Assembly: GCA_034660595.1 (NCBI GenBank)
Contig: JAYEJO010000011.1
Span: forward strand, 3,071 to 53,541
From: Candidatus Caldatribacteriota bacterium
GTDB taxonomy: Bacteria > Atribacterota > Phoenicimicrobiia > Phoenicimicrobiales > Phoenicimicrobiaceae
Length of the DNA stretch: 50,471 bases
Reading direction: 5' to 3'
Position 1 is the first letter of the stretch; each line of letters starts with the position of its first letter. The position numbers and the translations under genes are program-made. The notes beneath the pieces are model-generated. The model had not been told where the DNA came from. It saw only the letters and a program-made list of their open reading frames with translations, and ran no database searches. Positions 22,342 through 40,246 of this stretch are shown in pieces.

Positions 22342-23685
22342 ATGCAAAATAATTCAGTAAATAAAGAACCCAATGATGTAAATATTTTTCAAATGGAAAA
22401 AGTAATTAAATGGATCTTAGATTCTTACGTAAGATTAACGGGGTTTCAAATACATTTTTTGAATGACAAAGGAGAGAGAATATTTTCACCTTCCAGTTCT
22501 ATTAGAAAGGGGAGTGCCCTTTGTAAATTAATTCAGAGTAATTCAGAGGGAAGAAAAGAGTGTCAAAAATCATTCTATGATAATAGTTTAAGAAGTGCTG
22601 ATTATGGGAATTCTTATATTTTTCGATGCCGTTTCGGTATTATAACCTGGATTACTCCGGTGGTAATAAATGGGGAACTTTTAGGTTCTTTTATTTCTGA
22701 GGGAATTTTAATGCGAAAACCAGCTCCTTATTTTATAAAAGAAGTAATAGAAAAGACTAAGAATTTAGGAATAGAAGAATTTGAATTAATAGAAGCCCTT
22801 AAGAAGATAAAGATTGTTTCTGAAAAAAAAGTTAAATCTGCTGCAGATATACTTTATATTGCAGCTAATTATCTATCTAATACGGAGTTGTTAGATACTA
22901 AAATGCGCCAAGAGAAATATATTCAACAAGCAAGGATATCTGAAGAAATTCAGATGATGAAAAGAAAAGAGTTAGAATTACTTGAAAAAGAAGAGGAAGA
23001 TGAGGATTCTTTTATTTATATCAGTTCGATTTACCCTTTAGCAACAGAGAGAGAGTTACTAAGAAGAGTTAGATTGGGGGATGAAGAAGGAGCCAGAGAA
23101 GTTTTAAATGAAATTTTAGGTAAGATATTATTTAAAAATGCTGGTCGAATAGAAATAGTCCGAGCTCGAATCCTGGAATTAGCCGTAGTTCTTTCCCGAG
23201 CTGCTGTAGAAGGCAATGCAGAATTAGAAATGATTTTGGGATTGAACTTTAAATATATTCAAAAATTGGGTAATCTTAAATCCATTGAAGAATTATGTGT
23301 TTGGATTGTAGAAATTTTGGATAGATTTACCGAATGTGTTTATGAGAATAAAAATATTAAAAATGTTAATATTATAAAGAAGGCGAAAGAATTTATTCGA
23401 GCAAATTATAAAAAGAAAATAAGATTGGAAGATATATGTAAAGTAGTTTGTCTAAGCCCCTATTATCTAAGTCATATTTTTAAAAAGGAAGCCGGGTTTA
23501 CTCTATTTCAATATTTAACTAATGTCCGGGTTGAAGAAGCTAAAAGATTATTGGAAACTACTCAATGGAATACAACTCGAATTTCTTTTGAAGTAGGTTG
23601 TACAGATCAAAGTTATTTTTGTAAAGTTTTTAAGAAAATCGAGGGAATATCACCATATAAGTATAGAAAAACAATGAGAAAATAA
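22342..23685 (+). CDS. PocR sensor domain / AraC-family transcriptional regulator
   Basis: N-terminal PocR-like region with cysteines (CKLIQSNSEGRKECQKS...FRCRFG). C-terminal double HTH (SPYYLSHIFKKEAGFTLFQYL...EVGCTDQSYFCKVFKK). Confidence 0.8.
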   Translation: MQNNSVNKEPNDVNIFQMEKVIKWILDSYVRLTGFQIHFLNDKGERIFSPSSSIRKGSALCKLIQSNSEGRKECQKSFYDNSLRSADYGNSYIFRCRFGIITWITPVVINGELLGSFISEGILMRKPAPYFIKEVIEKTKNLGIEEFELIEALKKIKIVSEKKVKSAADILYIAANYLSNTELLDTKMRQEKYIQQARISEEIQMMKRKELELLEKEEEDEDSFIYISSIYPLATERELLRRVRLGDEEGAREVLNEILGKILFKNAGRIEIVRARILELAVVLSRAAVEGNAELEMILGLNFKYIQKLGNLKSIEELCVWIVEILDRFTECVYENKNIKNVNIIKKAKEFIRANYKKKIRLEDICKVVCLSPYYLSHIFKKEAGFTLFQYLTNVRVEEAKRLLETTQWNTTRISFEVGCTDQSYFCKVFKKIEGISPYKYRKTMRK

Positions 23686-24154: not shown

Positions 24155-25591
24155 ATGATAGGTGGTTTACCAGGAGGTCAATACAAACCTCTTTCACCCG
24201 ATGGAATCAAAGATATTCATAACACATCACTTCGACTTTTGGAAAACGTTGGCATGGAAGTAAACTGTAAAGAAGCATTAGATATATTTAAAGAAAAAGG
24301 AGCAGAGGTTGATTTTGACAAACATATAGTAAAAATACCCCGTAAAATGGTAGAAGATGCTATTGACACAGCTCCTTCTAAGGTGATTCTTTACGGTAGA
24401 GAAGATAAACATAATCTTGTTTTAGAAGGTTCAAATGTATATTTTGGGACTGGTGGCACCGTTTTAAACGTACTTGATTGGGAAACTAATAAAAAGAGAC
24501 CTTCTGCTTTAAAGGATGTTGCGCAATTTGCTAAATTAGTTGATGCTTTGGATAATGCTCATTTTTATGTTTTACCCCTATATCCTACGGAATTATCTCA
24601 AGAAACAGTTGATGTAAATAGATTTTATGCCGGTATCTCCAATACCTCTAAACATATTATGGGTGGTATTTATGACAAAGTAGGTCTATTAGAGACTATT
24701 AAAATGGCAGAAGAAATTGCCGGGGGAGCAGAACAGCTAAGAAAACGTCCATTTGTATCTTTTATTACCTGTGTAATGAGCCCATTAAAATTAGAAAATA
24801 TTTATACCGAGTTTTTAATTGAGATTGCCCGCAAAGGACTGCCGGTAGCCTGTCCCAGCGAAGTTTTAACCGGTGCAACCGGACCGGTCACTCTGGCTGG
24901 CGATTTAGTTTTAATTAATGCAGAGACTTTGGCTTGTGTAACCTTGACTCAGTTAGTTAACCCCGGAACTCCGGTCATATATGCTTCAACCGCTTCTATT
25001 ATGGATATGCAAAAAGGTATTTACCTTGGAGCCGGAGCAGAGCCAGGTCTTATTAATGCTGGTGTAGCTCAATTGGCTCAAAATGTCAAACTTCCTTATT
25101 ATGCTACTGCTGGAATGTCTGATTCCAAGATTCCAGATGCTCAATCAGGATATGAATCAGCAATTAGTGCTTTGGCTGTAGCCCTGGCAGGAGCGAACTT
25201 TATCCATGATGCAGTTGGAAATTTAGAATTTTGCATGACTATCAGTTTTGAAAAAGCAGTAATTGATAATGATATTTTGGGGATGGTTATGCGAATGGTG
25301 CAAGGTATTAAAGTAGATAAAGAGACTTTAGCAGAAGATTTAATTGCTAAAATTGGTCCAGCCGGGAATTTCCTTGCCGAAATGCATACAGTACAAAATA
25401 TGCGTAAAGAATTATATTTCCCCACTCTTGCAGATCGTCAGCATAGAATTGAATGGGAAAGTTTAGGCAGCAAAGATACAAGAACCCGAGCACGCGAAAA
25501 GGTAAAAGAAATTCTTACTAATCATAAACCACTACCTATTGCTCCCAAAGTATACCAAAAATTAAAATCAAAGATAAAAGGATTAATGTAA
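24155..25591 (+). CDS. MttB-superfamily methyltransferase, non-pyrrolysine (quaternary amine:corrinoid, MtgB-like)
   Basis: 478 aa, uninterrupted with no in-frame TAG. Family-typical N-terminus (YKPLSPDGIKDIHNTSLRLLENVG) and C-terminus (GNFLAEMHT). AGGAGG ribosome-binding site. Confidence 0.85.
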   Translation: MIGGLPGGQYKPLSPDGIKDIHNTSLRLLENVGMEVNCKEALDIFKEKGAEVDFDKHIVKIPRKMVEDAIDTAPSKVILYGREDKHNLVLEGSNVYFGTGGTVLNVLDWETNKKRPSALKDVAQFAKLVDALDNAHFYVLPLYPTELSQETVDVNRFYAGISNTSKHIMGGIYDKVGLLETIKMAEEIAGGAEQLRKRPFVSFITCVMSPLKLENIYTEFLIEIARKGLPVACPSEVLTGATGPVTLAGDLVLINAETLACVTLTQLVNPGTPVIYASTASIMDMQKGIYLGAGAEPGLINAGVAQLAQNVKLPYYATAGMSDSKIPDAQSGYESAISALAVALAGANFIHDAVGNLEFCMTISFEKAVIDNDILGMVMRMVQGIKVDKETLAEDLIAKIGPAGNFLAEMHTVQNMRKELYFPTLADRQHRIEWESLGSKDTRTRAREKVKEILTNHKPLPIAPKVYQKLKSKIKGLM

Positions 25592-25764: not shown

Positions 25765-26445
25765 ATGCTGGAAACTTGGAGTTATATAAATTCACATTGG
25801 GGCTTGGTTGGTCATTTGATTTTGCAACACTTAGAAATGGTTATTTTAGGGTGTGGGATTGGCGTAGTTGTCGGAGTTATGTTGGGAATATTTATTTCTG
25901 AAGAGGGAAGAGAGGGAATTGCAGAGTTAATTCTATATCTTGCTGAAATTATGATGACTATACCTAGTTTAGCTCTCTTTGGCTTGTTGATACCAATTTT
26001 AGCCGCATTGCACTTACCTGCTCTTGGACTTCTTCCTGCTGTTATTGCTTTAGTTGCTTATGGACTGTTGCCTATTTTACGAAATACTTATACAGCGATA
26101 CGAGAGGTTGACCCCGCAATAATTGAAGCTGGACAGGGGATGGGTATGAGCAAAAAGCAAATTATGTATAAGATTAAATTACCCCTTGCGGTACCTGTAA
26201 TTATGGCTGGTTTAAGAAATGCCATTGTATTGAACATAGGCATTGCAGCAATCGCTGTGGTTATAGGAGTAGGAGGATTGGGTGTACCCATATTTCGAGG
26301 AATAAGAAATTTTCGTTTTGATCTTATTCTTACCGGCGCGATATTTGTTTCCATTTTGGCTGTAATAGCTGATACTTTTTTAGGTTTCATTGAGGAAAAG
26401 ATAACTCCAGAGGGGTTAAAAAAAGCTAGAGGTGTTAACTTATGA
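25765..26445 (+). CDS. ABC permease, OpuCB/ProW-type (betaine/choline/carnitine class)
   Basis: About 6 TM helices. EAA-loop EAGQGMGMSKKQIMYKIKLPLA. Confidence 0.85.
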   Translation: MLETWSYINSHWGLVGHLILQHLEMVILGCGIGVVVGVMLGIFISEEGREGIAELILYLAEIMMTIPSLALFGLLIPILAALHLPALGLLPAVIALVAYGLLPILRNTYTAIREVDPAIIEAGQGMGMSKKQIMYKIKLPLAVPVIMAGLRNAIVLNIGIAAIAVVIGVGGLGVPIFRGIRNFRFDLILTGAIFVSILAVIADTFLGFIEEKITPEGLKKARGVNL

Positions 26446-27572
26446 TAAAATTTGAAAACATAACCAAGATTTACCCAGGTGGCATTGAAGCAGTTAAAGA
26501 TATAAGTTTTGAGGTTAAGAAAGATGAGTTTTGTATTCTTCTTGGTCCTTCTGGATGTGGTAAGACAACTACCATGAAAATGGTTAATCGATTGATTCCT
26601 ATTACTAAGGGGAAAATATATATCGATGGGCAGGATATTATGGAGATAGACAAAAATGAACTTCGAAGAGGTATAGGGTATGCGATTCAACAAATAGGTC
26701 TCTTTCCTCATATGACTGTTAAGGAGAACATACAGACTGTCCCCGTATTGAGAGGATGGTCCCAGGAAAAGATGGAGAAAAGAGTAAAGGAACTTATGCG
26801 TCTTGTGGGGTTGGATCCCTCTATATACCTGGATAAATATCCTGCTGAGTTATCTGGTGGGCAAAGGCAGAGAATTGGTGTAGCCCGGTGTTTAGGTGTC
26901 GATCCCCCTCTTCTACTAATGGATGAGCCCTTTGGAGCCATTGATCCTATAAATAGGGAGAAATTGCAGGATGAATTTCTAAAGATACAAATGGAAATAA
27001 AAAAGACTATTATATTTGTAACTCATGACCTTAATGAAGCCGTTAAGATGGGGGATAAGATTGTCTTAATGAAAGAGGGAGAGATAGTTGAGTATGATAC
27101 ACCTGCTAATTTGCTCTACAAGCCAAAAAATGATTTTGTAAGGAATTTTGTTGGTGCTGATCGAGTTCTTAAGGGATTACAGCTTATAAGGGTAAAAGAG
27201 GTTATGGATAGCTCACCTAAGACAGTAAGAGCAGATGAAAAGATAACCAGAGCTAAGAGATATATGGAGGGAGAGAAAATTAAATGGCTGATGGCAGTCG
27301 ATGATAACCATACCTTTTTGGGTTGGGTTGGCAAATCAGATCTTAGTGACAAAAATGCGGAAAAAGTTAGAGATATTATAATTCCTACGATTACTTCAGC
27401 TACTCCTAATACACCTTTAAATGAGGCTCTTTCACTTATGTTGGGCAGTGCAGTAGGAAATGTGGCTATACTTAATGACCAGGGTAAATTAGAAGGAGTG
27501 GTGAGGTTTGATTCTATCCGAAAAATTTTAAAAGATGTGAAGAAGTCTTACAATAAAGAAAAGAAAGGTTAA
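26442..27572 (+). CDS. ABC ATPase with C-terminal tandem CBS domains (OpuCA/ProV-type)
   Basis: Walker A GPSGCGKTT, signature LSGGQRQR, Walker B LLLMDEP and a ~130-aa CBS-like tail. ATGA overlap with the upstream permease. Confidence 0.9.
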   Translation: MIKFENITKIYPGGIEAVKDISFEVKKDEFCILLGPSGCGKTTTMKMVNRLIPITKGKIYIDGQDIMEIDKNELRRGIGYAIQQIGLFPHMTVKENIQTVPVLRGWSQEKMEKRVKELMRLVGLDPSIYLDKYPAELSGGQRQRIGVARCLGVDPPLLLMDEPFGAIDPINREKLQDEFLKIQMEIKKTIIFVTHDLNEAVKMGDKIVLMKEGEIVEYDTPANLLYKPKNDFVRNFVGADRVLKGLQLIRVKEVMDSSPKTVRADEKITRAKRYMEGEKIKWLMAVDDNHTFLGWVGKSDLSDKNAEKVRDIIIPTITSATPNTPLNEALSLMLGSAVGNVAILNDQGKLEGVVRFDSIRKILKDVKKSYNKEKKG

Positions 27573-27573
27573 A

Positions 27574-28302
27574 ATGAAACGTCGAATTGCTTTATTTATT
27601 TTTTTAGGAATTCTTATAGGTATAACTATATGGATAACAAATCTTGAGATGCTAAAATTTAGGCCACCTGCTACTTATGGGGAGCTAAGCGTAAGAATAA
27701 GTGAGCATCTTAGTATGGTAGGCCTGGCAGAAATTATTGCTATCAGTGTTGGTATTCCGTTTGGCATTTTAGTTAGTCGTCCTAAGTTTAGAAGGATCTC
27801 TCCTGTGGTGATGGGTGTAGTCAATGTTGGTCAAACTGTTCCAAGTATGGCAGTAGTTGCTATCGTAGCGGTAATTGTAGGGGGCTTTGGTTTTGCTCCG
27901 GCGGTTATCGCTCTTTTTGTATATGGATTGCTTCCTATTGTACGCAACTCATATGCTGGAATAAAAAATATTGATCCTTCAATTATAGAGTCAGCAAGAG
28001 GGATGGGTATGTCTAAAAGACAGATTATCTGGAAGATAGAACTTCCCCTTGCCAGACGTGTAATAATGGCTGGGATTAGAACGTCAACAGTTGTAAATAT
28101 TGGTACAGCTACATTAGCTGCGCTTATAGCAGCAGGTGGATTAGGAATGGTTATACTTGCAGGCTTGCTTAATAATATACCTTTATTGTTGCTTCAAGGG
28201 GCTGCTCCAACGGCTGCATTAGCAATAACTCTTGACGCCCTACTGGGAACAATAGAAGAATGGATGACCCCCCGGGGTTTAAAGATTAAAAGAGGGGCAT
28301 AA
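27574..28302 (+). CDS. ABC permease, OpuCD-type
   Basis: Paralogue of the 25765 permease. EAA-loop ESARGMGMSKRQIIWKIELPLA. Confidence 0.85.
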   Translation: MKRRIALFIFLGILIGITIWITNLEMLKFRPPATYGELSVRISEHLSMVGLAEIIAISVGIPFGILVSRPKFRRISPVVMGVVNVGQTVPSMAVVAIVAVIVGGFGFAPAVIALFVYGLLPIVRNSYAGIKNIDPSIIESARGMGMSKRQIIWKIELPLARRVIMAGIRTSTVVNIGTATLAALIAAGGLGMVILAGLLNNIPLLLLQGAAPTAALAITLDALLGTIEEWMTPRGLKIKRGA

Positions 28303-28303
28303 T

Positions 28304-29215
28304 ATGAAAGGAGTCACTCTCAGTTTAATTCTGATAATTTTTCTATTTTCTTTTTTGACGGGATTCCCCTCTTTTGCTCAAAATCATATAACTATAGGGA
28401 TTCAAGATTCTATACAACAGGAAATCCTTGGACAAATAATAGGAAATTATTTGAATGAAAACGGCTTTGAGGTGAAATACAATGTAAATCTATCTAATCC
28501 ATCTTTATATAGTGCACTTACTCAAAAACAGGTTGATCTTGCCTGGCTGGATCCTGCTTCAGTTTGGTTTCTCAAATATCTAAAGACAGATATTTTATCA
28601 TCTGAGGAGCTTTATAAAAAGATTAAAGAATTAGAGAAGAAGGAAGGACTTTTATGGTTCGAGACAGTCGACCTTGAAAACCAATATGTAGTAGTAATGC
28701 AAAGGGAAAAATCGAAGGAGTTGGGGATAACGACTATTTCTGAGTTAGCAGATTATGTGAGGATAAATCAAAAAAAAATTAGAGTGTCAATGAGCTCTGA
28801 ATTTTTCTTCCGTCCTGACTGTTATTTCCACCTTAAGCAGATATATGGATTCTCTTTTTATAGACCAAATTTAAGCTTAGTTTCTCCGGCTGTAGGTTTT
28901 GGTTTACTTTCTGCTGGTCAAGTTAATGTAGTCATAGCTTTTTCGACAGAACCTCTGATCGAAAAGTATAATTTAATCAAGCTTAAAGATGATAAAAAAT
29001 CTCTTAAATCTTATTCTGTAGGGATTATCGTTAGAGAAAAAATAATAGATAGATTTTCTAATTTATCTGGATTGGTTGATAAATTAAGCAGAATATCCTT
29101 ATCTACTTCAAAACTAAAAAAGTTAAATTTACGAGTTTATGAAGGGGAATCTCCAAAGGAACTTGCTCGGGAATATCTTATCAAGAAAGGCTTAATTGAC
29201 ATTAAGCGAGAATAA
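28304..29215 (+). CDS. substrate-binding protein 1 (OpuAC/OpuCC-fold, divergent)
   Basis: Signal peptide (LSLILIIFLFSFLTGFPSFA). Its position in the opu operon and loose similarity to the next gene support the call. Confidence 0.65.
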   Translation: MKGVTLSLILIIFLFSFLTGFPSFAQNHITIGIQDSIQQEILGQIIGNYLNENGFEVKYNVNLSNPSLYSALTQKQVDLAWLDPASVWFLKYLKTDILSSEELYKKIKELEKKEGLLWFETVDLENQYVVVMQREKSKELGITTISELADYVRINQKKIRVSMSSEFFFRPDCYFHLKQIYGFSFYRPNLSLVSPAVGFGLLSAGQVNVVIAFSTEPLIEKYNLIKLKDDKKSLKSYSVGIIVREKIIDRFSNLSGLVDKLSRISLSTSKLKKLNLRVYEGESPKELAREYLIKKGLIDIKRE

Positions 29216-29296
29216 AATTTATAAGGAGGTGGTGATATAGATTAATTTGAGAAATGAGAAAAGAAAAGATGATTTTATTATTTAAGGAGGTAAAAA

Positions 29297-30250
29297 ATGA
29301 AAAAGTTATTTAGTTTGATAGTGATATTAATCCTGCTCTTCGGAATGACCACGGTTGGTTTGTTAGCCGCTGAAAAACCTACTATAGTTGTAGGAAATAA
29401 AAACTTTACCGAGGAATATTTAGCAGGTGAATTGATGAAACAGATTTTAGAAGATAGAGGATTTAAGGTTGAATTAAAATCTGATTTATCTTCTATGATT
29501 ATGAGAGAGGGAATGATGACGGGAAATATTGATGTTTGTATGGAGTACACCGGAACTGCTTGGATGGTCCATCTTGCAAAGACATATACTCCGACAGGAC
29601 ATGAAGAACTTTACTATATGACTAAAGCAGGGGATGCTGCCAACAAGATGGTATGGCTACAACCAATGTGGAACCATAATAGTTATGCTCTTGCTGTATG
29701 GGCTGACTTTGCCGAAGAAAACAATATAGAATCGCTTTCTGATTTTGCAGCTTTTAGTAATCAGAAGAAGGGGAAAATTAAAACTTTTATCGATTTTGAA
29801 TTCTCTCAACGTCCGGATGGCTGGCCAGCCCTACAAAAGGCTTATAACTTTAAAATTGATAAAGGTTCTCTTAAAAGTGCAGCTCCTGGAGCTTCTTTAA
29901 TAGCTTTGAAGAAACATGAGGTTGATGTAGCAATGGTCTTTGCAACTGATGCTTCAATAGCGAAATATGGTTGGGTGGTTTTAAGGGATGATAAAAACTT
30001 CTTCCCCCCCTATGATTTAACTCCTGTCGTAAGAGCAGAGATTCTGGAGAAGTATCCTGAGGTTGGAATTGCGCTTAATGAATTGGTGGCTGCATTTTCC
30101 AATGGTTCAGGCGTTCCCTTTACTACAGAGAAGTTAGCTAATGCTCAAAGGATATGGCAGTGGTTAAATGGAAAAGTTGATATAGAGAAAAAAGATGCAG
30201 CTGAAGCTGCCCATGATTTCTTAGTCGAACATAATTTGATAAAAGGTTAG
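29297..30250 (+). CDS. substrate-binding protein 2 (glycine betaine/choline-binding, OpuCC-like)
   Basis: Signal peptide. KNFTEEYLAGEL...YTGTAW and aromatic-rich segments are typical of betaine-binding proteins. AAGGAGG ribosome-binding site. Confidence 0.8.
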   Translation: MKKLFSLIVILILLFGMTTVGLLAAEKPTIVVGNKNFTEEYLAGELMKQILEDRGFKVELKSDLSSMIMREGMMTGNIDVCMEYTGTAWMVHLAKTYTPTGHEELYYMTKAGDAANKMVWLQPMWNHNSYALAVWADFAEENNIESLSDFAAFSNQKKGKIKTFIDFEFSQRPDGWPALQKAYNFKIDKGSLKSAAPGASLIALKKHEVDVAMVFATDASIAKYGWVVLRDDKNFFPPYDLTPVVRAEILEKYPEVGIALNELVAAFSNGSGVPFTTEKLANAQRIWQWLNGKVDIEKKDAAEAAHDFLVEHNLIKG

Positions 30251-30284
30251 TATAACTATGTAGTAAAAAAGTGTTTAAGTAAAA

Positions 30285-30320
30285 GAAAAGGAGTTGATTA
30301 TTCAACTCCTTTTCTTTATT
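30285..30320 (+). terminator. Rho-independent terminator after the opu operon
   Basis: GAAAAGGAGTTGA / TCAACTCCTTTTC 13-bp stem with a 4-nt loop, then TTTATT. Confidence 0.75.
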
Positions 30321-30383
30321 AATAGTTTAAATAATGATAAAAATAAAGGAAGATAAAGACTTTTCTTGAAAAGGTAAAAAGAT

Positions 30384-32222
30384 ATGTTTGGATATAATGG
30401 CAGGATATTAGAAGTTGATTTAAGCAATCGAAAAATAGTTATTTCGAGATTAGATGAAAAAAACGCCAGGAATTACATCGGCGGAAGTGGTTTGGCAGCT
30501 AAAATTATTTATGATGAAACTTCACCAGAGATAGACCCTTTAAACTCCCAGAACCTTTTAGTTTTTATGACGGGACCTTTCACCGGTACGGTTATACCTA
30601 CTTCTGGAAGACATGCCATTGCCGCCAGGTCTCCCCTTACAGGAATCTGGGGTGAAGCTGATGTAGGGGGGAGTTGGGGAATAAGTTTAAAAAGAGCGGG
30701 CTACGATGGAATTAAAATTAAGGGAGCATCCAAAACTCCTGTATATTTATGGATTCACAGTGGAAAAGTAGAAATAAAGGATGCAAAGCACCTTTGGGGC
30801 ATGGATACTTATAAAGTAAATGATTTATTAAAAAAGGAAACGAATGAAAGAGCTTCAGTCGCCTGCATTGGGTTAGCAGGGGAGTCGCTTGTAAAATTTG
30901 CCTCTATAATGCATGATGGTAAAAATGCTCGAGCTGCGGGAAGATGTGGTTTAGGGGCAGTAATGGGTGGAAAGAAACTAAAAGCCATTGTAGTTCAAGG
31001 GGGAGAAAAAACTAAAATTAGAGATAAAGAAGGGCTGAAGAGACTTGTAAAAAAACTTATTCCTCAAATGAGAGAGGAAACTGCTTATCTGGGAAATTAT
31101 GGGACCACAGGTTCGACAGCGGAGGAAGAGGAAATAGGCGATCTTCCCATCAAAAATTGGCGTCAGGGAAAGTGGGAAGATGGCGCAAAGAAGCTTTCGG
31201 GGCAGACTTTGTTGGAGACAATCTTTTCTGGAAATTATCATTGTCCGACCTGTCCTATAGGATGTGGCAAAGAGGTTAAAATTAGAGAGGGGAAATATAA
31301 TGGAGTGGATGGAGCGGCGGCAGAGTATGAAACAATTGGTACTCTTGGCTCTCTCTGCCTGGTGGATAATTTAGAAGCTGTTTCTCTAGCTAATCAACTT
31401 TGTAACCAATATGGAATGGATACTATCTCTACCGGGGCAGCTATTGCTTTTACTATGGAAGCTTATGAAAAGGGTCTAATCGGCTCATCCGATTTGGATG
31501 GTTTGGAATTAACCTGGGGGAATGCAGATGCTATGGTAGAAATGGTGAGAAGAATTGGCGAGCGCAATGGTCTGGGCAGGCTTTTAGGAGAGGGTGTGAG
31601 AAAAGCAGCTGAAGAAATTGGAGGAAGAGCTTCTGAGTTTGCTATTCACGTGAAGGGATTAGAACTTCCTGCACACGACCCTCGGGCTTTTTATAGTTTA
31701 GCTCTTGGTTATGCTACTTCTAATAGAGGAGCCTGCCATCTGCAAGCTTATTCGCATCCCTTTGAACGTTGGATAGCTATGCCTGATTTGGGTTATTCAG
31801 AATGTCTACCTCCACATATTGAGAAAGGGAAAGCCGAGTTAGTAATGAAATTACAAAATCTTATGTGCATGTTTGATTCACTAAAGATATGTAAATTTAG
31901 CATGTATGGTGGTATTGAACCTCATCATCTTGTAGAATTATTAAATTTAGTAACTGGTTGGGATGTAAATTTGAAGGAATTTATGCGAGTAGGAGAGCGT
32001 TTATTTAACTTGAAAAGGTTGTATAATGTGAAATGTGGAATAAACAGAAAAGATGATATCCTTCCTTCTCGATTGCTTACTCAGACCAGAGGAGAGGGAG
32101 GAGCTTCCGATACCCTGCCCTATTTGGGAAGAATGTTGAGCGAATATTATAAACTTAGAGGATGGGATGAAAAAGGAATTCCTTTGAGCAGTAAATTGAA
32201 AGAGATGGGTTTAAATGTATGA
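30384..32222 (+). CDS. aor: aldehyde:ferredoxin oxidoreductase (tungstopterin AOR family)
   Basis: 612 aa. N-terminus MFGYNGRILEVDLS...GGSGLAAKI and [4Fe-4S] ligand region YHCPTCPIGCGK. Family-typical length. Confidence 0.9.
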   Translation: MFGYNGRILEVDLSNRKIVISRLDEKNARNYIGGSGLAAKIIYDETSPEIDPLNSQNLLVFMTGPFTGTVIPTSGRHAIAARSPLTGIWGEADVGGSWGISLKRAGYDGIKIKGASKTPVYLWIHSGKVEIKDAKHLWGMDTYKVNDLLKKETNERASVACIGLAGESLVKFASIMHDGKNARAAGRCGLGAVMGGKKLKAIVVQGGEKTKIRDKEGLKRLVKKLIPQMREETAYLGNYGTTGSTAEEEEIGDLPIKNWRQGKWEDGAKKLSGQTLLETIFSGNYHCPTCPIGCGKEVKIREGKYNGVDGAAAEYETIGTLGSLCLVDNLEAVSLANQLCNQYGMDTISTGAAIAFTMEAYEKGLIGSSDLDGLELTWGNADAMVEMVRRIGERNGLGRLLGEGVRKAAEEIGGRASEFAIHVKGLELPAHDPRAFYSLALGYATSNRGACHLQAYSHPFERWIAMPDLGYSECLPPHIEKGKAELVMKLQNLMCMFDSLKICKFSMYGGIEPHHLVELLNLVTGWDVNLKEFMRVGERLFNLKRLYNVKCGINRKDDILPSRLLTQTRGEGGASDTLPYLGRMLSEYYKLRGWDEKGIPLSSKLKEMGLNV

Positions 32223-33285
32223 ATTCAGTTTTCCTACAAAAGTAATTTTTAAAGAAAGAATAGTAGAATATATAGGGGAAGAGATATATAAGTTTTGTAA
32301 TGAATTACCTTCTCCTTTGGTAATAGTTACAGTTGAAGAGAAATGGAATGAAAAATTTATAGAAAATATTAAAGAAAATCTTCAAGAAGCAGGCTGTAAA
32401 AGAGTAGATATTTTTCGTGGAGTAACAGATGATCCAGGCAGAAAATGTGTTGATGAAGGAATAAAATTCTGTAAACTGTTAAATAGTAAGGGTATAATTG
32501 CTTTTGGAGGAGGCTCTTCGATGGATACCGCTAAGGTTATAGCTAAAGAAGCTCAGATTAATTTTTTAGTTGCTATACCTACAACAGCAGGAACAGGAGG
32601 AGAGATTTCTCCTTGGGCAGTGATTACCAATGAAAAAAAACAGGAAAAGGAAAGTTTTATGGCAAAATTTCCTGATATGGCATTATTGGATCCTTATTTG
32701 ACAGAGAGTATGCCTTCTAAGGTGACTTTATTAACGGGAATAGATGCATTTTCTCATGCTTTGGAGTCTTATTTTTCTAAATCTGCTTTTTCCTTAACTG
32801 ATGCTCTGTCGCTGCAAGCTATTCAGCTAATCGAAGAGAATCTACTTAATGCAGTGAGAGAGGGTAGTGATTTATCTGCCCGAAGCAATATGCTTGAAGG
32901 AAGCCTTTTAGCGGGGATGGCAATGTTACATTCTGGTTTAGGATTAGTTCATGCTATTGCTCATCCCATAGGGGGACTGTATCATAGCAACGGATTGGCA
33001 CATGGTTATATTATTGCCCATCTCCTTCAAAGTGTGATTGAATTTAATAAATCAGCAAATTTAGATAAGTATCAGAAAGTTAGAGATTCTTTAGAAATAA
33101 TGGGAGGGATTATAGACGAAGAATTATTTTTAAAATTAGGCATGTCTAAAATAAAAGTAAAAGAGAATGATATTCCCTTGTTGGCAAAAAGAAGTGCGGA
33201 TAATATTAATGCACTTACTAACCCGAGAAGTTTCACTTTGAGCGATATTGAAGATGTTATTAGAAATAGTTTCAAAATAGTATAA
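32215..33285 (+). CDS. iron-containing (type III) alcohol dehydrogenase
   Basis: GGGSSMDTAK nucleotide motif and His ligands (FSHALESY, VHAIAHPIGG). 8-nt overlap with aor. Confidence 0.85.
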   Translation: MYEFSFPTKVIFKERIVEYIGEEIYKFCNELPSPLVIVTVEEKWNEKFIENIKENLQEAGCKRVDIFRGVTDDPGRKCVDEGIKFCKLLNSKGIIAFGGGSSMDTAKVIAKEAQINFLVAIPTTAGTGGEISPWAVITNEKKQEKESFMAKFPDMALLDPYLTESMPSKVTLLTGIDAFSHALESYFSKSAFSLTDALSLQAIQLIEENLLNAVREGSDLSARSNMLEGSLLAGMAMLHSGLGLVHAIAHPIGGLYHSNGLAHGYIIAHLLQSVIEFNKSANLDKYQKVRDSLEIMGGIIDEELFLKLGMSKIKVKENDIPLLAKRSADNINALTNPRSFTLSDIEDVIRNSFKIV

Positions 33286-33384: not shown

Positions 33385-34833
33385 ATGGTTAAAGGCGGTA
33401 TAGAGGGAGGAAAATATCGTCTTCTTTCAAATGAAGAGATTGAAATGATTCATGAAACGTCCATAAAAATTTTACAGCAAACAGGAATAAAATCAGAAAA
33501 CGAAGAAATTTTAAGTCATTTTTCCAAAATTGGTGCAGAAGTAAATTTTGAGAAAGGAATAATAAAATTTTCACCAGCTTTAGTAGAAGATGCTATTAAT
33601 AAGGCTTCATCCAAAGTTTTTCTTTGTGGGAGAGAAGAGAAAAACGATCTTGATTTGGAAGGTAAAAAGGTATATTGTGGAACTGGAGGCGCAGCTTTAA
33701 ATGTACTTGATTTAGAAACGGGTGAAAGAAGGGAATCAAGACTTAAAGACATTGCAGATATAGCTAAATTAGTAGACGCACTTGATAATATCCATTTTTA
33801 TTTAAGGCCAGTAGTAGCTCGGGATATTTCTTCAGAGTTTCTTGATGTAAATAAATATTATGCGGCCTTAAGCAATACCTCAAAACATGTAATGGGTTCA
33901 GCTTACACTGTGGAAAGTGCTCTTGAAGTGATTTCTATGGCTGAAGAAATTACTGGAGGAAAAGAAAAATTAAGAGAAAGGCCAATTATTTCTTTTATTA
34001 CTTCATTTATAAAGAGTCCTTTGCAGTTAGCTGATCCTACTGTATTAGTTTTAATGAAACTTGCTGAAGAAGGGATGCCGGTAGCTCTTTCTACTGCACC
34101 TATGGCCGGTTCTACTTCTCCGATAACTTTAGCTGGAACTTTAGCTCAAGTTAATGCAGAACAACTTGGCGGGATGGTTCTTACTCAGTCGATCAACCCA
34201 GGCACGCCTGTAATTTATGGTGCTATTCCTACTATAGCTGATATGCAGACTATGAATTTTTTAGATGGAGCCATAGAATTGGGAATACTTGCCGCCGGTG
34301 CTGCTCAATTAGCACAATATTATAATTTTCCTTATTATGCTTGGGGAGGTCTTACTGATTCTAAAATTCCTGATATCCAGGCTGGATATGAGAAAGGAAT
34401 GACTCTTGTTATGGCAGCTTTGGCCGGAGCAAATTATATTCATAATGCTGCTGGTATGTTGGAATCTACTACTACCGTAGCTTATGAGCAATATGTAATA
34501 GATAATGAGATTATAGGTATGGCAATGAGAGCCTTACAAGGGATAGAGGTAAATGAAGATACTTTAGCTTTTAAAGTAATAGATAAAGTAGGGCCGGGAG
34601 GCAATTATTTAGCTGAAACACATACAGTAAAACATATGAGATCAGAATTATTTTTTCCCAAAGTTAGTGATAGATCTTTAAGAGAGGAATGGATTTCAAA
34701 AGGAGGCAAAGACGCTCGCGAGAGAGCAAGAGAAATAGCCAAAAATAGTTTAGCCACCCATAGGCCTCTTCCGATTCCTTCTGATATAGATAAAAAAATT
34801 AGAAGTAAAATAAAAGGTTTAATAAAATTTTAG
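33385..34833 (+). CDS. MttB-superfamily methyltransferase paralogue 2, non-pyrrolysine
   Basis: 482 aa, collinear with the 24155 gene at roughly half identical residues by eye. No in-frame TAG. AAGGAG ribosome-binding site. Confidence 0.85.
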   Translation: MVKGGIEGGKYRLLSNEEIEMIHETSIKILQQTGIKSENEEILSHFSKIGAEVNFEKGIIKFSPALVEDAINKASSKVFLCGREEKNDLDLEGKKVYCGTGGAALNVLDLETGERRESRLKDIADIAKLVDALDNIHFYLRPVVARDISSEFLDVNKYYAALSNTSKHVMGSAYTVESALEVISMAEEITGGKEKLRERPIISFITSFIKSPLQLADPTVLVLMKLAEEGMPVALSTAPMAGSTSPITLAGTLAQVNAEQLGGMVLTQSINPGTPVIYGAIPTIADMQTMNFLDGAIELGILAAGAAQLAQYYNFPYYAWGGLTDSKIPDIQAGYEKGMTLVMAALAGANYIHNAAGMLESTTTVAYEQYVIDNEIIGMAMRALQGIEVNEDTLAFKVIDKVGPGGNYLAETHTVKHMRSELFFPKVSDRSLREEWISKGGKDARERAREIAKNSLATHRPLPIPSDIDKKIRSKIKGLIKF

Positions 34834-34846: not shown

Positions 34847-35740
34847 ATGAAAATCGGATTGGGTCAAATAAAATATGAAACAGGGAAGGTAAAAAAGAAC
34901 CTAAAAAAAATACAAAAATTTATCTTTAAAGCTAAAAAGGAAGAGGTCGATTTATTAGTTTTCCCCGAGTTAAGTCTTACGGGCTATTCGTTAAAAAGTC
35001 GTCTTATTCCTAAGGTGGCTTTAAAATTAGACGGTCCAATAATTGAAAGTTTAAAAGAAGAGAGTAAGGATATTTCTTTGGTAATAGGTTTAGTAGAAGA
35101 GTCAAGAAATTATGATTTTTATAATACTGCTCTTTATCTGGAAAAAGGAGAAATAAAACATATTCACCGAAAGATATATTTACCTAATTATGGCATGTTT
35201 GAGGAGAAAAAATATTTCATTAGCGGGGAAGAAGTAAGATCTTTTGAGACATCTTATGGACGAATGGGCATGTTGGTTTGTGCTGATTCCTGGCATCCTG
35301 TCCTACCTTACATTTTAGCCTTAGATGGTGCTTTTATTTTTATAAATGTGGTTTCCAGTTATAGTAAGGGTTTAGGAAAGAAAATATCTACTCGTTATGC
35401 CTGGGAAAGGGTGAATAAATTTTATGCCCAAGTATTTTCTTGCTATGTTGTCTTTGTTAATGCAGTAGGTGCTGACGGCGAAAATAATTTTTGGGGAGGG
35501 TCTACTGTCATTAAACCGGGAGGTAGAATATTAGTAAAGCCTGATTATTCCAAAGAACAATTGGCCACAGCTTACATAGATTTAAAAAGAGTACGATATT
35601 ATAAAAATGTTTTACCAGAATTTAAAGAGGAGAAGATTGATTTAGTTATAAGAGAACTCAAGAGGATAAAGAAAGACAAACTCAAGAATGTCTCTTTTAA
35701 ATATATTAATAAATATAAAAAAATATCTTATCTTCCGTAA
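34847..35740 (+). CDS. carbon-nitrogen hydrolase (nitrilase-superfamily amidase)
   Basis: E-K-C triad contexts FPELSLTGY, HRKIYLPNYGMFEE and MLVCADSWHP. Lys-rich C-terminal tail. Starts 13 nt after mttB paralogue 2. Confidence 0.8.
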   Translation: MKIGLGQIKYETGKVKKNLKKIQKFIFKAKKEEVDLLVFPELSLTGYSLKSRLIPKVALKLDGPIIESLKEESKDISLVIGLVEESRNYDFYNTALYLEKGEIKHIHRKIYLPNYGMFEEKKYFISGEEVRSFETSYGRMGMLVCADSWHPVLPYILALDGAFIFINVVSSYSKGLGKKISTRYAWERVNKFYAQVFSCYVVFVNAVGADGENNFWGGSTVIKPGGRILVKPDYSKEQLATAYIDLKRVRYYKNVLPEFKEEKIDLVIRELKRIKKDKLKNVSFKYINKYKKISYLP

Positions 35741-35953: not shown

Positions 35954-36586
35954 ATGGTAGATTTAAATAAGGTTTCTGAATCTTTACAAAGAGGAGACGC
36001 AGAAAAAGTAGAAGAACTTGTTAAACAAGCTTTGGAGGAGAATTTATTACCCAAGGATATTTTAGAAAATGGTTTAATCAAAGGAATGGATATTATTGGG
36101 GCAAAATTTAAAAAGAATGAAGTGTATGTTCCCGAAGTCTTAATTGCTGCTCGAGCAATGCATGCAGGAATGAGTGTACTTAGACCCAAATTAACTGAAA
36201 CAGGAGTAAAAAACATAGGCAAAGTAGCAATAGGTACTGTAAAGGGAGATTTGCACGATATTGGGAAAAATTTAGTAAAAATGATGTTAGAGGGGGCAGG
36301 CTTTGAAGTTATAGATTTAGGAATAGATGTCTCTGTAGATAAATTTGTAGAAGCAGTAGAAGTGCATCAACCAAATATAATAGGTATGTCTGCTCTTTTG
36401 ACTACTACAATGATTAATATGGCGGAAGTGATAAAAGCCCTTGAAGCTGCAGGGTTAAGAAACAAAGTAAAGATAATGATCGGGGGAGCACCGATAACTC
36501 AAAATTATGCTGATCAAATTGGAGCAGATAGCTATTCTCCCGATGCTGCTTCTGCAGTAGATAATGCAAAATCTTTTGTAGCTTAA
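35954..36586 (+). CDS. corrinoid (cobalamin-binding) methyl-carrier protein, MtgC/MttC-like
   Basis: B12-binding cap helix bundle plus Rossmann domain. DxHxxG (GDLHDIGKN), SALLTTT and GGAP motifs. AAGGAGG ribosome-binding site. Confidence 0.9.
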   Translation: MVDLNKVSESLQRGDAEKVEELVKQALEENLLPKDILENGLIKGMDIIGAKFKKNEVYVPEVLIAARAMHAGMSVLRPKLTETGVKNIGKVAIGTVKGDLHDIGKNLVKMMLEGAGFEVIDLGIDVSVDKFVEAVEVHQPNIIGMSALLTTTMINMAEVIKALEAAGLRNKVKIMIGGAPITQNYADQIGADSYSPDAASAVDNAKSFVA

Positions 36587-37935: not shown

Positions 37936-38014
37936 CCAGTTCCAAGCATATATTATAAGTGATGAGCGTTAAAGATGTATCTTTAATTATCAGATTTTAC
38001 GAGGAGAAGTTATT

Positions 38015-39724: not shown

Positions 39725-39796
39725 ATAGGTCAGATACAGATAGTTAAAATTATAAGTTTTGCAGTTAATAATTTTAAGGAAGGATTAACATTATCT

Positions 39797-40222: not shown

Positions 40223-40246
40223 TATTTTCTAAGGAGGAAAGCAAAT

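What the first reader, a model, noticed from the sequence alone, without database searches (positions are those of the whole stretch)
25765..33285. Possible anaerobic, ferredoxin-linked choline -> betaine aldehyde -> glycine betaine branch feeding the MttB enzymes
**Seen in sequence.** Between the two MttB paralogues lie an OpuC-type ABC importer with two different binding proteins, a terminator, and then an overlapping pair of a tungsten-type AOR and a type III Fe-alcohol dehydrogenase.

**Established knowledge.**
- OpuB/OpuC systems import choline and betaines.
- Bacillus subtilis GbsB, the choline dehydrogenase of the gbsAB pathway, is a type III Fe-ADH.
- AOR enzymes oxidise aldehydes to acids using ferredoxin.

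**Inference.** The Fe-ADH plus AOR could replace GbsB plus GbsA. Choline would be converted to glycine betaine without NAD-dependent aldehyde dehydrogenase or oxygen, and reduced ferredoxin would flow into the neighbouring Hdr system.
Basis: inference. Interest (0 to 1): 0.62.

Follow-up and report, generated by a model that had tools for sequence, protein, structure and literature searches.

The report
Amino-alcohol oxidation module beside MttB demethylases

Summary
Two pyrrolysine-free MttB paralogues flank an OpuC-type ABC importer with two dissimilar binding proteins, a strong hairpin, and an AOR gene that overlaps a 356-aa Fe-ADH gene by 8 nt.

The link between the ADH and the methylamine genes is real, not chance.
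- The ADH belongs to a discrete, monophyletic family of short (about 351-358 aa) Fe-ADHs.
- In uncultured Aerophobetes, Chloroflexota, Brocadiia and other bacteria this family almost always lies beside one MttB clade ("type 2"), and often beside an OpuC importer.
- An MttB is present in 11 of 12 dereplicated family loci of at least 5 kb, against 1 of 90 loci around ordinary Fe-ADHs.
- The partners are swapped non-orthologously. A Zn-ADH replaces the Fe-ADH in one locus, and a Mo XDH-type enzyme stands where the AOR would be in two others. This supports an alcohol -> aldehyde -> acid function.

The specific reading is only partly supported.
- The ADH is not GbsB-like (206 bits against a cut-off of 550).
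- All 47 MttBs in ADH clusters lack the carboxylate-binding Arg312 of MtgB and the other characterised acidic-substrate MttBs. They carry Tyr or Trp there, and many carry Asp at 348.
- The MttBs therefore more likely demethylate the alcohol forms (choline, then dimethylethanolamine), with ADH and AOR acting afterwards. The net products are similar.
- The AOR is accessory: it has decayed in close relatives.
- The link to the Hdr system is untested.

The parts
22342..23685 (+). PocR-sensor / AraC-type regulator upstream of the cluster
   Evidence: Pfam PocR + HTH_18/HTH_AraC. It is conserved at the head of the same cluster in L012/L013, at 90% identity.
24155..25591 (+). MttB-1, a pyrrolysine-free MttB-family methyltransferase ('type 1': Tyr312, Met at the Pyl position, Asp348)
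   Evidence: PF06253, 385 bits. TIGR02369, 509.9 bits against a cut-off of 525. Residue mapping onto MtgB and M. barkeri MttB is.
25765..28302 (+). OpuC/OpuB-type ABC importer core: permease, CBS-ATPase, permease
   Evidence: BPD_transp_1 twice, plus ABC_tran + CBS. TIGR01186 proV, 374.8 bits against a cut-off of 326.6.
28304..29215 (+). SBP1, a divergent OpuAC-type binding protein with site residues Q13/D63/S66/Y111/R149/F190/Y214 (A. fulgidus ProX numbering)
   Evidence: PF04069. Best PDB relatives are choline-binding OpuBC derivatives. Signature. Found only in the window lineage and its close Aerophobetes-like relatives.
29297..30250 (+). SBP2, a ProX-type binding protein with a complete betaine-site signature K13/Y63/T66/Y111/R149/F190/Y214
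   Evidence: Best PDB hit is A. fulgidus ProX, 1sw1. The signature is conserved in all 20 SBP2-type proteins of ADH clusters, 19 with F190 and 1 with Y190.
30282..30317 (+). 16-bp hairpin with a U-rich tail between the importer genes and the AOR gene (terminator or attenuator)
   Evidence: RNA fold gives -22.6 kcal/mol, z = -8.3. Sequence read.
30384..32222 (+). Aldehyde:ferredoxin oxidoreductase of the AOR sensu stricto clade (tungsten type inferred)
   Evidence: AFOR_N + AFOR_C. PDB hits 9mqx E = 7e-134 and 1aor E = 1e-127. CxxCxxxC at residue 287 plus C495. AORs of the same sub-branch (65-89% identical) share contigs with short Fe-ADHs.
32215..33285 (+). Short Fe-dependent (type III) alcohol dehydrogenase, member of a discrete MttB-linked family
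   Evidence: Fe-ADH + ADH_Fe_C. GGGS motif and metal ligands D177/H181/H246/H263 are invariant. The family is discrete and monophyletic. Synteny.
33385..34833 (+). MttB-2, 'type 2' MttB (Tyr312, Leu at the Pyl position, Asn348); this is the MttB clade that accompanies the ADH everywhere
   Evidence: PF06253. TIGR02369, 521.5 bits against a cut-off of 525. Orthologues 43-53% identical sit within a gene or two of the ADH in distant loci, including the Zn-ADH locus L105.
34847..35740 (+). CN-hydrolase (nitrilase-superfamily amidase) with an intact Glu-Lys-Cys triad; role unexplained
   Evidence: PF00795. Triad E41/K109/C145 read from the sequence. It follows MttB-2 in L012, L015, L112, L131, L134 and L135.
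35954..36586 (+). Corrinoid (B12-binding) protein, the only one in the genome
   Evidence: B12-binding_2 + B12-binding. Single copy by tblastn.
49159..49971 (+). Pterin-binding methyl-corrinoid:tetrahydrofolate methyltransferase, followed by the start of formate-THF ligase at 50024
   Evidence: Pterin_bind/CdhD. FTHFS. Single copy.

Best explanation
**What the pair is.** The AOR and the short Fe-ADH form a two-step alcohol -> aldehyde -> carboxylic acid module. It belongs to a conserved, oxygen-independent catabolic gene set for a choline-type methylated amino alcohol.

**Proposed route** (which steps are shown and which inferred is stated at the end)
1. The OpuC-type importer takes up the onium compound(s).
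2. MttB-2 and MttB-1 act with the single corrinoid protein and the pterin methyltransferase. They move N-methyl groups to tetrahydrofolate while the substrate is still in its alcohol, non-acidic form: choline -> dimethylethanolamine -> monomethylethanolamine.
3. The Fe-ADH, using NAD(P)+, oxidises the amino alcohol to the aldehyde.
4. The AOR, using ferredoxin, oxidises the aldehyde to the corresponding N-methylglycine.
5. The methyl groups are oxidised through MetVF, Fhs and an Fdh-like enzyme. One ATP is gained per methyl at Fhs. The genome has no acetyl-CoA synthase.

The order of steps differs.

**Shown:** the gene content, the conserved synteny, the family boundaries and the active-site residues.
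**Inferred:** the substrate identity, the order of steps, the direction and the cofactors.
For: **1. A discrete ADH family.** Hits run from 94% down to about 38% identity, all about 350-360 aa, and then break to generic Fe-ADHs. All 43 family members fall on one side of a branch with support 100 against 40 generic Fe-ADHs.

**2. Synteny.**
- An MttB lies beside the ADH in L015 (Aerophobetes), L016/L102, L017, L019 (Chloroflexota), L100/L101 and the contig.
- In an independent scan with an ADH-family-specific DNA pattern, 18 of 28 dereplicated ADH clusters carry an MttB. Among clusters with a locus of at least 5 kb the count is 11 of 12.
- Control: 1 of 90 loci around generic Fe-ADHs carries an MttB. 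Fisher p = 8e-13.
- OpuAC binding protein: 7 of 12 against 0 of 90, p = 4e-8.

**3. Non-orthologous swaps keep the chemistry.**
- L105 (Brocadiia) reads AOR (63% identical), then a Zn-dependent MDR alcohol dehydrogenase, then a type-2 MttB.
- L100 and L101 carry a MOP/XDH-type Mo enzyme with its FAD subunit where the AOR would be.

**4. The AOR-ADH pair is inherited together.** L017 has an AOR 67% identical and an ADH 51% identical, with the same overlap. L104 has 72% and 55%. The contig has 65% and 46%.

**5. The MttBs look like non-acid enzymes.**
- MtgB binds the betaine carboxylate with R312 and H348. R312 is conserved in MtgB, MtcB, MtpB, MtyB and MthB, all of which use acidic substrates (PMC13080624). 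It is also present in S. meliloti 4yyc.
- The window MttBs have Tyr312, as does the TMA enzyme of M. barkeri.
- Of 47 MttBs in ADH clusters, 31 have Tyr, 16 have Trp and none has Arg. Types 1 and W carry Asp at 348.

**6. No alternative route in the genome.**
- No BADH-like ALDH; only two weak Aldedh hits.
- No CutC; the two glycyl-radical enzymes are HypD-like and unknown.
- No EutB and no ACS.
- The methyl branch and Fhs are adjacent.
Against: - No biochemical or expression data exist.
- The conserved binding protein SBP2 keeps every betaine-contacting residue of A. fulgidus ProX, including the carboxylate ligands K13, T66 and R149. This suggests that a carboxylated betaine, not choline, is imported.
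- The Arg312 rule rests on five characterised enzymes plus one structure. A different way of binding an acid cannot be excluded.
- The CN-hydrolase in the window is not explained by any choline scheme. Neither are the glutamine synthetase and GATase genes in other loci.
- The AOR is missing (L015) or reduced to a remnant (L134, L110) in close relatives, so it is not essential to the core.
- L018 and L104 carry ADH + AOR with no MttB within 8-10 kb.
Confidence: 0.42

Rival explanations
1. The Fe-ADH oxidises choline to betaine aldehyde and the AOR oxidises that to glycine betaine. Glycine betaine, either made this way or imported through SBP2, is then demethylated by the MttB paralogues to dimethylglycine and sarcosine.
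For: - SBP2 has a complete ProX-type betaine site, and this is the binding protein conserved across ADH clusters.
- L018 (ADH-AOR-ferredoxin-SBP2) and L104/L106 show ADH + AOR with an OpuAC protein or alone, with no adjacent MttB. There the pair would have to act on the imported compound itself.
- An anaerobic route choline -> betaine -> dimethylglycine has been proposed for 'Ca. Formimonas warabiya' from growth data (PMC8163858).
- The genome has no BADH.
Against: - None of the four MtgB betaine-binding residues is kept. MttB-1 has G/Y/D/C and MttB-2 has G/Y/N/T at positions 97/312/348/356. No MttB of any ADH cluster has Arg312.
- Asp348 in types 1 and W would sit where the carboxylate binds.
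- The ADH is no closer to GbsB than to other Fe-ADHs.
Confidence: 0.25
2. The substrate is a different hydroxylated onium or amine compound, not choline. Candidates are homoserine betaine from betaine lipids, a choline ester such as choline-O-sulfate, or another amino alcohol. The ADH and AOR oxidise its primary alcohol, and the amidase, GS or GATase genes handle a nitrogen-releasing step.
For: - The recurrent amide and nitrogen enzymes are not needed for choline: CN-hydrolase in the window, L015, L131, L134 and L135; a true type I glutamine synthetase (512 bits against a cut-off of 429) in L016, L100 and L102; GATase plus PrpD in L019 and L124.
- SBP2 recognises an anionic group next to the onium head.
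- A methylaspartate-ammonia-lyase-like gene lies in L100 and L101.
- A sulfatase with its maturase lies in L105.
Against: - No single extra partner is universal.
- Choline is by far the most abundant candidate in sediments.
- The MttB residues argue against an acidic substrate.
Confidence: 0.13
3. The pair runs in the reductive direction. Imported glycine betaine is reduced by the AOR with reduced ferredoxin, and by the ADH with NAD(P)H, to choline. This serves as an electron sink for methyl-group oxidation. Non-acid-type MttBs then demethylate the choline.
For: - This reading reconciles a betaine-type SBP2 with non-acid-type MttBs.
- The organism has no ACS, so it must dispose of electrons from methyl oxidation.
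- From my own knowledge, AOR + ADH acid reduction is known in acetogens and Thermoanaerobacter.
Against: - It is energetically costly. MtgB-type enzymes in other organisms demethylate betaine directly.
- Many clusters have no AOR.
- No precedent was found in the literature searches.
Confidence: 0.07
4. There is no specific link. The AOR and Fe-ADH are a general aldehyde/alcohol or acid-reduction pair that happens to lie in this cluster.
For: - The AOR belongs to the broad-substrate AOR sensu stricto clade, with a continuum of homologues at 55-60% identity in acetogens and archaea.
- The genome has three other AOR paralogues.
- The AOR is lost in close relatives.
- A hairpin separates it from the importer genes.
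Against: - ADH-MttB co-location is 11 of 12 against 1 of 90, p = 8e-13.
- The AOR-ADH overlap is conserved at 51-67% identity.
- The Zn-ADH and Mo-enzyme swaps keep the same neighbourhood.
Confidence: 0.08

Closest known systems
GbsB/GbsA choline -> glycine betaine pathway of Bacillus subtilis (type III Fe-ADH plus NAD-dependent betaine aldehyde dehydrogenase, linked to OpuB/OpuC import)
   Same: Both have a type III Fe-ADH fold with a GGGS motif and an Asp/His3 metal site. Both perform a two-step alcohol -> acid oxidation of an onium alcohol next to an OpuB/C-type importer.
   Different: The ADH scores 206.5 bits on the GbsB model against a cut-off of 550. It belongs to a separate short clade that lacks two loops. 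The aldehyde step uses a ferredoxin-linked AOR (or a Mo enzyme elsewhere) in place of an ALDH. The setting is catabolic, with MttB and corrinoid genes, not osmoprotective.
MtgB/MtgC/MtgA glycine betaine:THF methyltransferase system (Desulfitobacterium hafniense; PDB 2qne/9yce; PMC13080624)
   Same: Both have an MttB-family TIM-barrel methyltransferase without pyrrolysine, a corrinoid protein and a pterin methyltransferase in one cluster. Identity to MtgB is about 34%.
   Different: All four betaine-binding residues (Y97, R312, H348, F356) are replaced. The cluster has two paralogues of different types, and ADH/AOR partners are present.
MthK/MthB/MthC/MthA choline pathway of Eubacterium limosum (PMC12155760)
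   Same: Both demethylate choline anaerobically to THF through an MttB-family enzyme without producing TMA.
   Different: MthB needs phosphocholine made by the kinase MthK, and it keeps Arg312. Here no kinase was found among the cluster's genes, Tyr or Trp replaces Arg312, and an ADH with or without an AOR follows. In E. limosum dimethylaminoethanol is the end product.
Pyrrolysine-containing trimethylamine methyltransferase MttB (Methanosarcina barkeri; PDB 7xcl; TIGR02369)
   Same: It is the highest-scoring HMM family (510 and 521 bits against a cut-off of 525). Tyr sits at the position equivalent to MtgB R312, as expected for a non-acidic substrate.
   Different: There is no in-frame TAG. 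Met (MttB-1) or Leu (MttB-2) stands at the pyrrolysine position.
Pyrococcus furiosus AOR (1aor) and bacterial W-AORs (9mqx, 9g7j, 8c0z)
   Same: Both have a full-length two-domain architecture and the Cys ligands of the [4Fe-4S] cluster. E-values are 1e-108 to 1e-134.
   Different: This AOR lies in a sub-branch (at least 65% identical) that is translationally coupled to a short Fe-ADH and lies in or beside MttB/OpuC clusters. No AOR has been reported to act on betaine aldehyde or aminoacetaldehydes in the literature searched.

Membership tests
GbsB choline dehydrogenase (NCBIfam NF053866) | Whole-protein HMM score at or above the curated cut-off (550 bits) | tested here: not met
   206.5 bits. 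Ordinary Bacillaceae Fe-ADHs that are not GbsB reach up to 359 bits on this model.
GbsB choline dehydrogenase (NCBIfam NF053866) | Phylogenetic grouping with B. subtilis GbsB | not testable with these tools
   No GbsB sequence could be fetched. Seven Bacillaceae genomes held none above the cut-off. Only HMM scores are available.
Type III (iron-containing) alcohol dehydrogenases | Fe-ADH N- and C-terminal domains, GGGS dinucleotide motif, and Asp + 3 His metal ligands | tested here: met
   PF00465 + PF25137. G98-G99-G100-S101, D177, H181, H246 and H263 are invariant in 43 family members.
Aldehyde:ferredoxin oxidoreductase (AOR sensu stricto) | AFOR_N + AFOR_C domains, the CxxCxxxC...C ligands of the [4Fe-4S] cluster, and closest solved relatives being AORs rather than FOR, GAPOR, WOR5 or BamB | tested here: met
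   Scores against 9mqx, 1aor and 9g7j are 451, 430 and 420 bits. FOR scores 327, WOR5 252 and BamB 209.
Aldehyde:ferredoxin oxidoreductase (AOR sensu stricto) | Tungsten (not molybdenum) cofactor, and activity on betaine aldehyde | not testable with these tools
   Requires metal analysis and enzyme assays.
MtgB glycine betaine:corrinoid methyltransferase | Betaine-binding residues Y97, F356 (cation-pi) and R312, H348 (carboxylate), as defined in PMC13080624 | tested here: not met
   MttB-1 has G, C, Y, D at these four positions. MttB-2 has G, T, Y, N. None of 47 MttBs in ADH clusters has R312.
Pyl-type trimethylamine methyltransferase MttB (TIGR02369) | In-frame UAG (pyrrolysine) and a score above 525 bits | tested here: not met
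   The frames are uninterrupted. Met or Leu aligns with Pyl. Scores of 509.9 and 521.5 fall just below the cut-off.
OpuB/OpuC-type osmoprotectant ABC importers | Two separate permeases, an ATPase with tandem CBS domains, and an extracellular OpuAC-fold binding protein | tested here: met
   TIGR01186 scores 374.8 bits against a cut-off of 326.6.
ProX (A. fulgidus)-type glycine/proline betaine binding site | K13, Y63, T66, Y111, R149, Y190, Y214 | tested here: met
   SBP2 has K, Y, T, Y, R, F, Y. SBP1 does not (Q, D, S, Y, R, F, Y). Actual ligand binding was not tested.
MthK/MthB phosphocholine system | A choline kinase gene co-located with the MttB homologue, and Arg312 kept for the phosphate | tested here: not met
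   No kinase domain was found among the genes of 22-50 kb that were scanned. Tyr stands at position 312.

The most novel reading that the evidence does not exclude
The three MttB types found only with these ADHs would be the first corrinoid methyltransferases that act directly on free amino alcohols, with no phosphorylation:
- type 2: Tyr312;
- type 1: Tyr312 / Asp348;
- type W: Trp312 / Asp348.

Their substrates would be choline, dimethylethanolamine and monomethylethanolamine. With the short Fe-ADH and a ferredoxin-linked AOR (or a Mo enzyme), they would form a complete route that is free of oxygen, TMA and ATP. It would run from choline to sarcosine or glycine in abundant subsurface phyla: Atribacterota JS1, Aerophobetes, Chloroflexota and Planctomycetota.
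Probability: 0.3. Interest if true: 0.8.

Novelty: new variant of a known kind. Interest (0 to 1): 0.62.

Why it matters
Choline from membrane lipids is a major methylated nitrogen compound in anoxic sediments. It is also a precursor of trimethylamine and methane. Two kinds of anaerobic route are known. One makes TMA (CutC). The others demethylate choline after phosphorylation (E. limosum) or through an MtmB homologue (Methanococcoides).

A route that strips the methyl groups into the folate pool and oxidises the carbon skeleton with a ferredoxin-linked AOR would divert choline away from TMA and methane. It would also give fermenters low-potential electrons for H2 production. And it would assign a substrate class to a large uncharacterised branch of the MttB superfamily and to a new Fe-ADH clade.

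It further gives Atribacterota JS1 a concrete energy substrate. JS1 is among the most abundant uncultured lineages below the sea floor. The trait is rare in the phylum, found in 1 of 86 species genomes, and looks laterally acquired.

Tried and rejected
- **Gamma-glutamylation idea.** I considered that ethanolamine is gamma-glutamylated, as in the Puu/Ipu/GlnA4 pathways, before oxidation, because GS-like genes recur. The GS-like proteins exceed the cut-off of true type I glutamine synthetase (512 and 508 bits against 429). They score only about 200 bits against 650 on gamma-glutamylputrescine synthetase. The idea is weakened.
- **Choline -> TMA + acetaldehyde via CutC**, with AOR and ADH handling the acetaldehyde and TMA-like MttBs taking the TMA. 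The two glycyl-radical enzymes of the genome are HypD-like (921 bits) and unassigned. CutC scores 360 and 201 bits against a cut-off of 1050. Rejected.
- **Scan of genome contigs with the family alignment**. The patterns were too generic and returned only ordinary Fe-ADHs at 29-40% identity. I reused those loci as the negative control.
- **Fetching a GbsB sequence for a tree** failed.
- **Whether L018's genome lacks MttB altogether.** It has two, one on the same contig about 57 kb away, so the check was uninformative.
- **The terminator scan** did not list the hairpin. Folding confirmed it.
- **Structure prediction** was not used. Model coordinates cannot be inspected for pocket residues with these tools.

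Full report
**1. What is in the window**

The window is a contig of a 1.84-Mb, 98.5%-complete metagenome-assembled genome. I did not check that assignment myself.

Between 22.3 and 50.5 kb all genes lie on the + strand, in this order:
- a PocR/AraC regulator;
- MttB-1;
- an OpuC-type ABC importer: permease, CBS-ATPase, permease;
- two OpuAC-fold binding proteins, SBP1 and SBP2;
- a hairpin;
- AOR;
- Fe-ADH;
- MttB-2;
- a CN-hydrolase;
- a corrinoid protein;
- an Hdr-like/MvhD/molybdopterin block;
- MetV/MetF;
- a pterin methyltransferase;
- the start of formate-THF ligase.

- The AOR and ADH genes overlap by 8 nt.
- SBP1 and SBP2 are only about 22% identical.
- The 'terminator' is a 16-bp hairpin of -22.6 kcal/mol, z = -8.3.

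**2. The enzymes one by one**

*AOR.* It is a full-length member of the AOR sensu stricto clade. It scores 451 bits against 9mqx and 430 against 1aor. FOR, WOR5 and BamB-type enzymes score far lower. The [4Fe-4S] cysteines are present.

*ADH.* It is a type III Fe-ADH with an intact GGGS motif and metal ligands. It is short, at 356 aa. Relative to DhaT, FucO and ADH2 it lacks a loop between the GGGS and PTTAGT motifs and another in the C-terminal domain. On NCBIfam models it scores about the same on ErcA (222), FucO (208), GbsB (206.5) and AdhE (206.5), all far below their cut-offs. It is therefore not a GbsB orthologue.

*MttBs.* The two proteins are 52% identical to each other. They score 510 and 521 bits on the pyrrolysine-type TMA methyltransferase model, whose cut-off is 525. 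Neither has an in-frame stop.

**3. The ADH belongs to a discrete family that travels with MttB**

A search of 5.8 billion proteins found homologues from 94% down to about 38% identity. All are about 350-360 aa. Below that there is a break to generic Fe-ADHs. In a tree, all 43 family members fall on one side of a branch with support 100 against 40 generic Fe-ADHs.

The family is absent from the 85 other Atribacterota species genomes searched. Its members come from uncultured Aerophobetes, Chloroflexota/Anaerolineae and other bacteria. Here the trait is patchy and probably acquired laterally.

Gene neighbourhoods:

| Locus | ADH identity to the window | Gene order |
|---|---|---|
| L012-L014 | 88% | same cluster as the window |
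| L015 (Aerophobetes) | 72% | importer, SBP1, SBP2, ADH, MttB, CN-hydrolase; no AOR |
| L016 / L102 | 54-56% | corrinoid protein, MttB, pterin MT, importer, SBP2-type, ADH, glutamine synthetase, MttB |
| L017 and the contig | 51% / 46% | MttB, MttB, AOR, ADH (same overlap); divergent importer |
| L018 | 47% | ADH, AOR, ferredoxin, SBP2-type |
| L019 (Chloroflexota) | 43% | importer, GATase, PrpD, pterin MT, corrinoid protein, ADH, MttB, unknown, MttB |
| L100 / L101 | 43-44% | MOP/XDH-type Mo enzyme + FAD subunit, MttB, TatAC, ADH, MttB, MttB, glutamine synthetase |
| L104 | 55% | GntR, AOR (72%), ADH, SucCD-like ligase |

I then ran an independent scan of metagenome contigs with an ADH-family-specific DNA pattern. 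The pattern hits 10 of 11 known family loci and none of 90 generic loci. The scan gave 33 more loci, which make 28 ADH clusters at 90% identity.
- An MttB is present in 18 of the 28 clusters. Among clusters with a locus of at least 5 kb it is present in 11 of 12.
- An adjacent AOR is present in 9.
- Opu importer genes are present in 12.

The control set is 90 loci around generic Fe-ADHs. It holds an MttB in 1, an OpuAC protein in 0 and an AOR in 6. Fisher tests give p = 8e-13 for MttB, 4e-8 for OpuAC and 0.016 for AOR.

**4. Non-orthologous replacement supports the chemistry**

- In L105 (Brocadiia) an AOR 63% identical to the window's is followed by a zinc-dependent MDR alcohol dehydrogenase. 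After that comes an MttB of the same 'type 2' clade, 48% identical to MttB-2.
- In L100 and L101 a molybdenum MOP/XDH-type enzyme stands where the AOR would be.

So the partnership 'alcohol dehydrogenase + aldehyde-oxidising metalloenzyme + type-2 MttB' persists while the protein families change. This is good evidence that the pair performs alcohol -> aldehyde -> acid on a compound of the MttB pathway.

**5. Which compound, and in which order?**

*Evidence from the MttBs.* The 2026 structure of MtgB with glycine betaine shows cation-pi contacts from Y97 and F356. R312 and H348 bind the carboxylate. R312 is conserved in all characterised non-pyrrolysine members (MtgB, MtcB, MtpB, MtyB, MthB), whose substrates are all acidic (PMC13080624). 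The S. meliloti structure 4yyc also has Arg there.

In gap-free alignments MttB-1 and MttB-2 carry Tyr at this position, as does the TMA enzyme of M. barkeri. The other three positions are also replaced. The pattern is general. Of 47 MttBs in ADH-linked clusters, 31 have Tyr, 16 have Trp and none has Arg. They fall into three types:
- type 2, the constant ADH neighbour;
- type 1, as MttB-1;
- type W.

Types 1 and W place an Asp at position 348, where a carboxylate would bind.

The simplest reading is that these enzymes take non-acidic substrates. Those would be the alcohol forms: choline, then dimethylethanolamine, then monomethylethanolamine. The ADH and AOR would then act on the demethylated amino alcohol.

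*Evidence from the binding proteins.* SBP2 is the type conserved in all clusters. It keeps every ligand-contacting residue of A. fulgidus ProX, including the carboxylate ligands K13, T66 and R149. SBP1 has Gln at position 13 and has lost one cage tyrosine to Asp. From my own recollection, Gln at this position is the residue that binds the choline hydroxyl in B. subtilis OpuBC.

These two residue-based inferences pull in opposite directions. The order of steps is therefore unresolved, and I give my order a modest lead. The net products are similar either way.

**6. Genome context**

- The genome has only these two MttBs, one corrinoid protein and one pterin methyltransferase.
- There is no betaine-aldehyde-dehydrogenase-like ALDH.
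- There is no CutC and no EutB.
- There is no acetyl-CoA synthase.
- No glycine-reductase hit was found, but that search rang in no control genome, so it says nothing about absence.
- A glycine-cleavage P protein is present.

The methyl groups are therefore oxidised rather than turned into acetate. ATP would be gained at formate-THF ligase. A ferredoxin-reducing aldehyde step would suit a hydrogen-evolving fermenter. The proposed flow of ferredoxin electrons into the Hdr-like block remains untested. That block is not part of the conserved module: it appears only in the window lineage, and the otherwise close cluster L134 appears to lack it.

**7. The AOR is accessory**

- In L015 the AOR is absent.
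- In L134 the ADH is 91-93% identical to those of L110 and L112. The 314-nt spacer between SBP2 and the ADH still spells the AOR N-terminus, an internal piece and the C-terminus. It is a deletion remnant.
- L110 keeps only the last 120 codons of the AOR.

In all these loci ADH, MttB-2 and the CN-hydrolase stay intact. The core is therefore ADH + type-2 MttB. The aldehyde oxidiser can be supplied in different ways; the window genome has three further AOR paralogues.

**8. Unexplained**

The CN-hydrolase has an intact Glu-Lys-Cys triad and follows MttB-2 in several lineages. Other loci carry a true type I glutamine synthetase or a class I GATase. None of these is needed in a choline -> N-methylglycine scheme. 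They hint at ammonia release or at an amide intermediate. This keeps open the rival that the true substrate is another hydroxylated onium compound.

**9. Literature and novelty**

Full-text searches found no report of an AOR acting on betaine aldehyde. They also found no paper linking Atribacterota, choline and AOR, and no paper describing MttB genes in Atribacterota.

Known anaerobic choline routes:
- CutC;
- the MthK/MthB phosphocholine pathway of E. limosum (PMC12155760);
- an MtmB-homologue route in Methanococcoides (PMC13044021);
- choline -> betaine -> dimethylglycine, proposed for 'Ca. Formimonas warabiya' with ordinary dehydrogenases (PMC8163858).

The top 120 homologues of MttB-2 all come from uncultured organisms. 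Earlier unchecked notes of this scan report similar ADH-MttB(-AOR) sets in other genomes. I treat them as leads only.

I rate the finding a new variant of a known kind. The enzyme families are known. They are combined here in an undescribed, conserved module, with a distinct MttB branch and a distinct Fe-ADH clade.

**10. Verdict**

- General claim: the pair is an alcohol -> acid module of a choline-type MttB pathway. I put this at about 0.75-0.8 overall.

Noticed in passing
L134:4988-5301 and L110:1116-1475 (metagenome relatives of window 30251-32222): Close relatives of the cluster (ADH 91-93% identical to one another) carry only remnants of the AOR gene. L134 has a 314-nt spacer that still encodes the N-terminus, an internal piece and the C-terminus. 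L110 has the last 120 codons. ADH, MttB-2 and the CN-hydrolase stay intact, so this is ongoing gene decay.
   Followed up: partly
window 34847-35740: The CN-hydrolase has an intact Glu-Lys-Cys triad and starts 13 nt after MttB-2. It is conserved after MttB-2 in several lineages. Other loci carry a true GSI or a class I GATase in this setting. No role in a choline or betaine scheme is apparent.
   Followed up: partly
window 24155-25591 and 33385-34833: Both pyrrolysine-free MttBs score 510 and 521 bits on the TMA-methyltransferase equivalog model, just under the cut-off of 525. They share its Tyr at the MtgB-R312 position. Met or Leu stands where pyrrolysine would be.
   Followed up: yes
L104:7633-9718 and L105:14748-19179: In two distant loci an ADP-forming SucCD/ACD-like CoA ligase lies next to the AOR-ADH pair. 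In L105 a phosphotransacetylase-family gene lies there too. This hints that in some organisms the acid product is linked to acyl-CoA and ATP formation.
   Followed up: no
L100:806-5981 and L101:1-6091: A methylaspartate-ammonia-lyase-like gene and a MOP/XDH-type molybdenum enzyme with its FAD subunit precede the MttB-ADH-MttB-MttB-GS set. These are the only clusters with three MttBs.
   Followed up: no
own genome, C65:1-1443 and C65:2049-3239: A trans-4-hydroxy-L-proline dehydratase-like glycyl radical enzyme (921 bits on the partial protein) lies next to the genome's only other Fe-ADH paralogue. C114 holds a second, unassigned glycyl radical enzyme.
   Followed up: partly
window 36652-47425 compared with L134:9634-13011: The 11-kb Hdr-like/MvhD/molybdopterin block lies between the corrinoid protein and the MetVF/pterin methyltransferase genes in the window. 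The space is only about 3.4 kb in the otherwise similar cluster L134, so the block is a variable insert.
   Followed up: no
L016:17196-19856, L102:15289-17829, L123: Large ORFs of 846-1118 aa with no Pfam hit on record (L016, L102) or no match to my query set (L123) lie a few genes downstream of some ADH-MttB clusters. I did not examine this.
   Followed up: no
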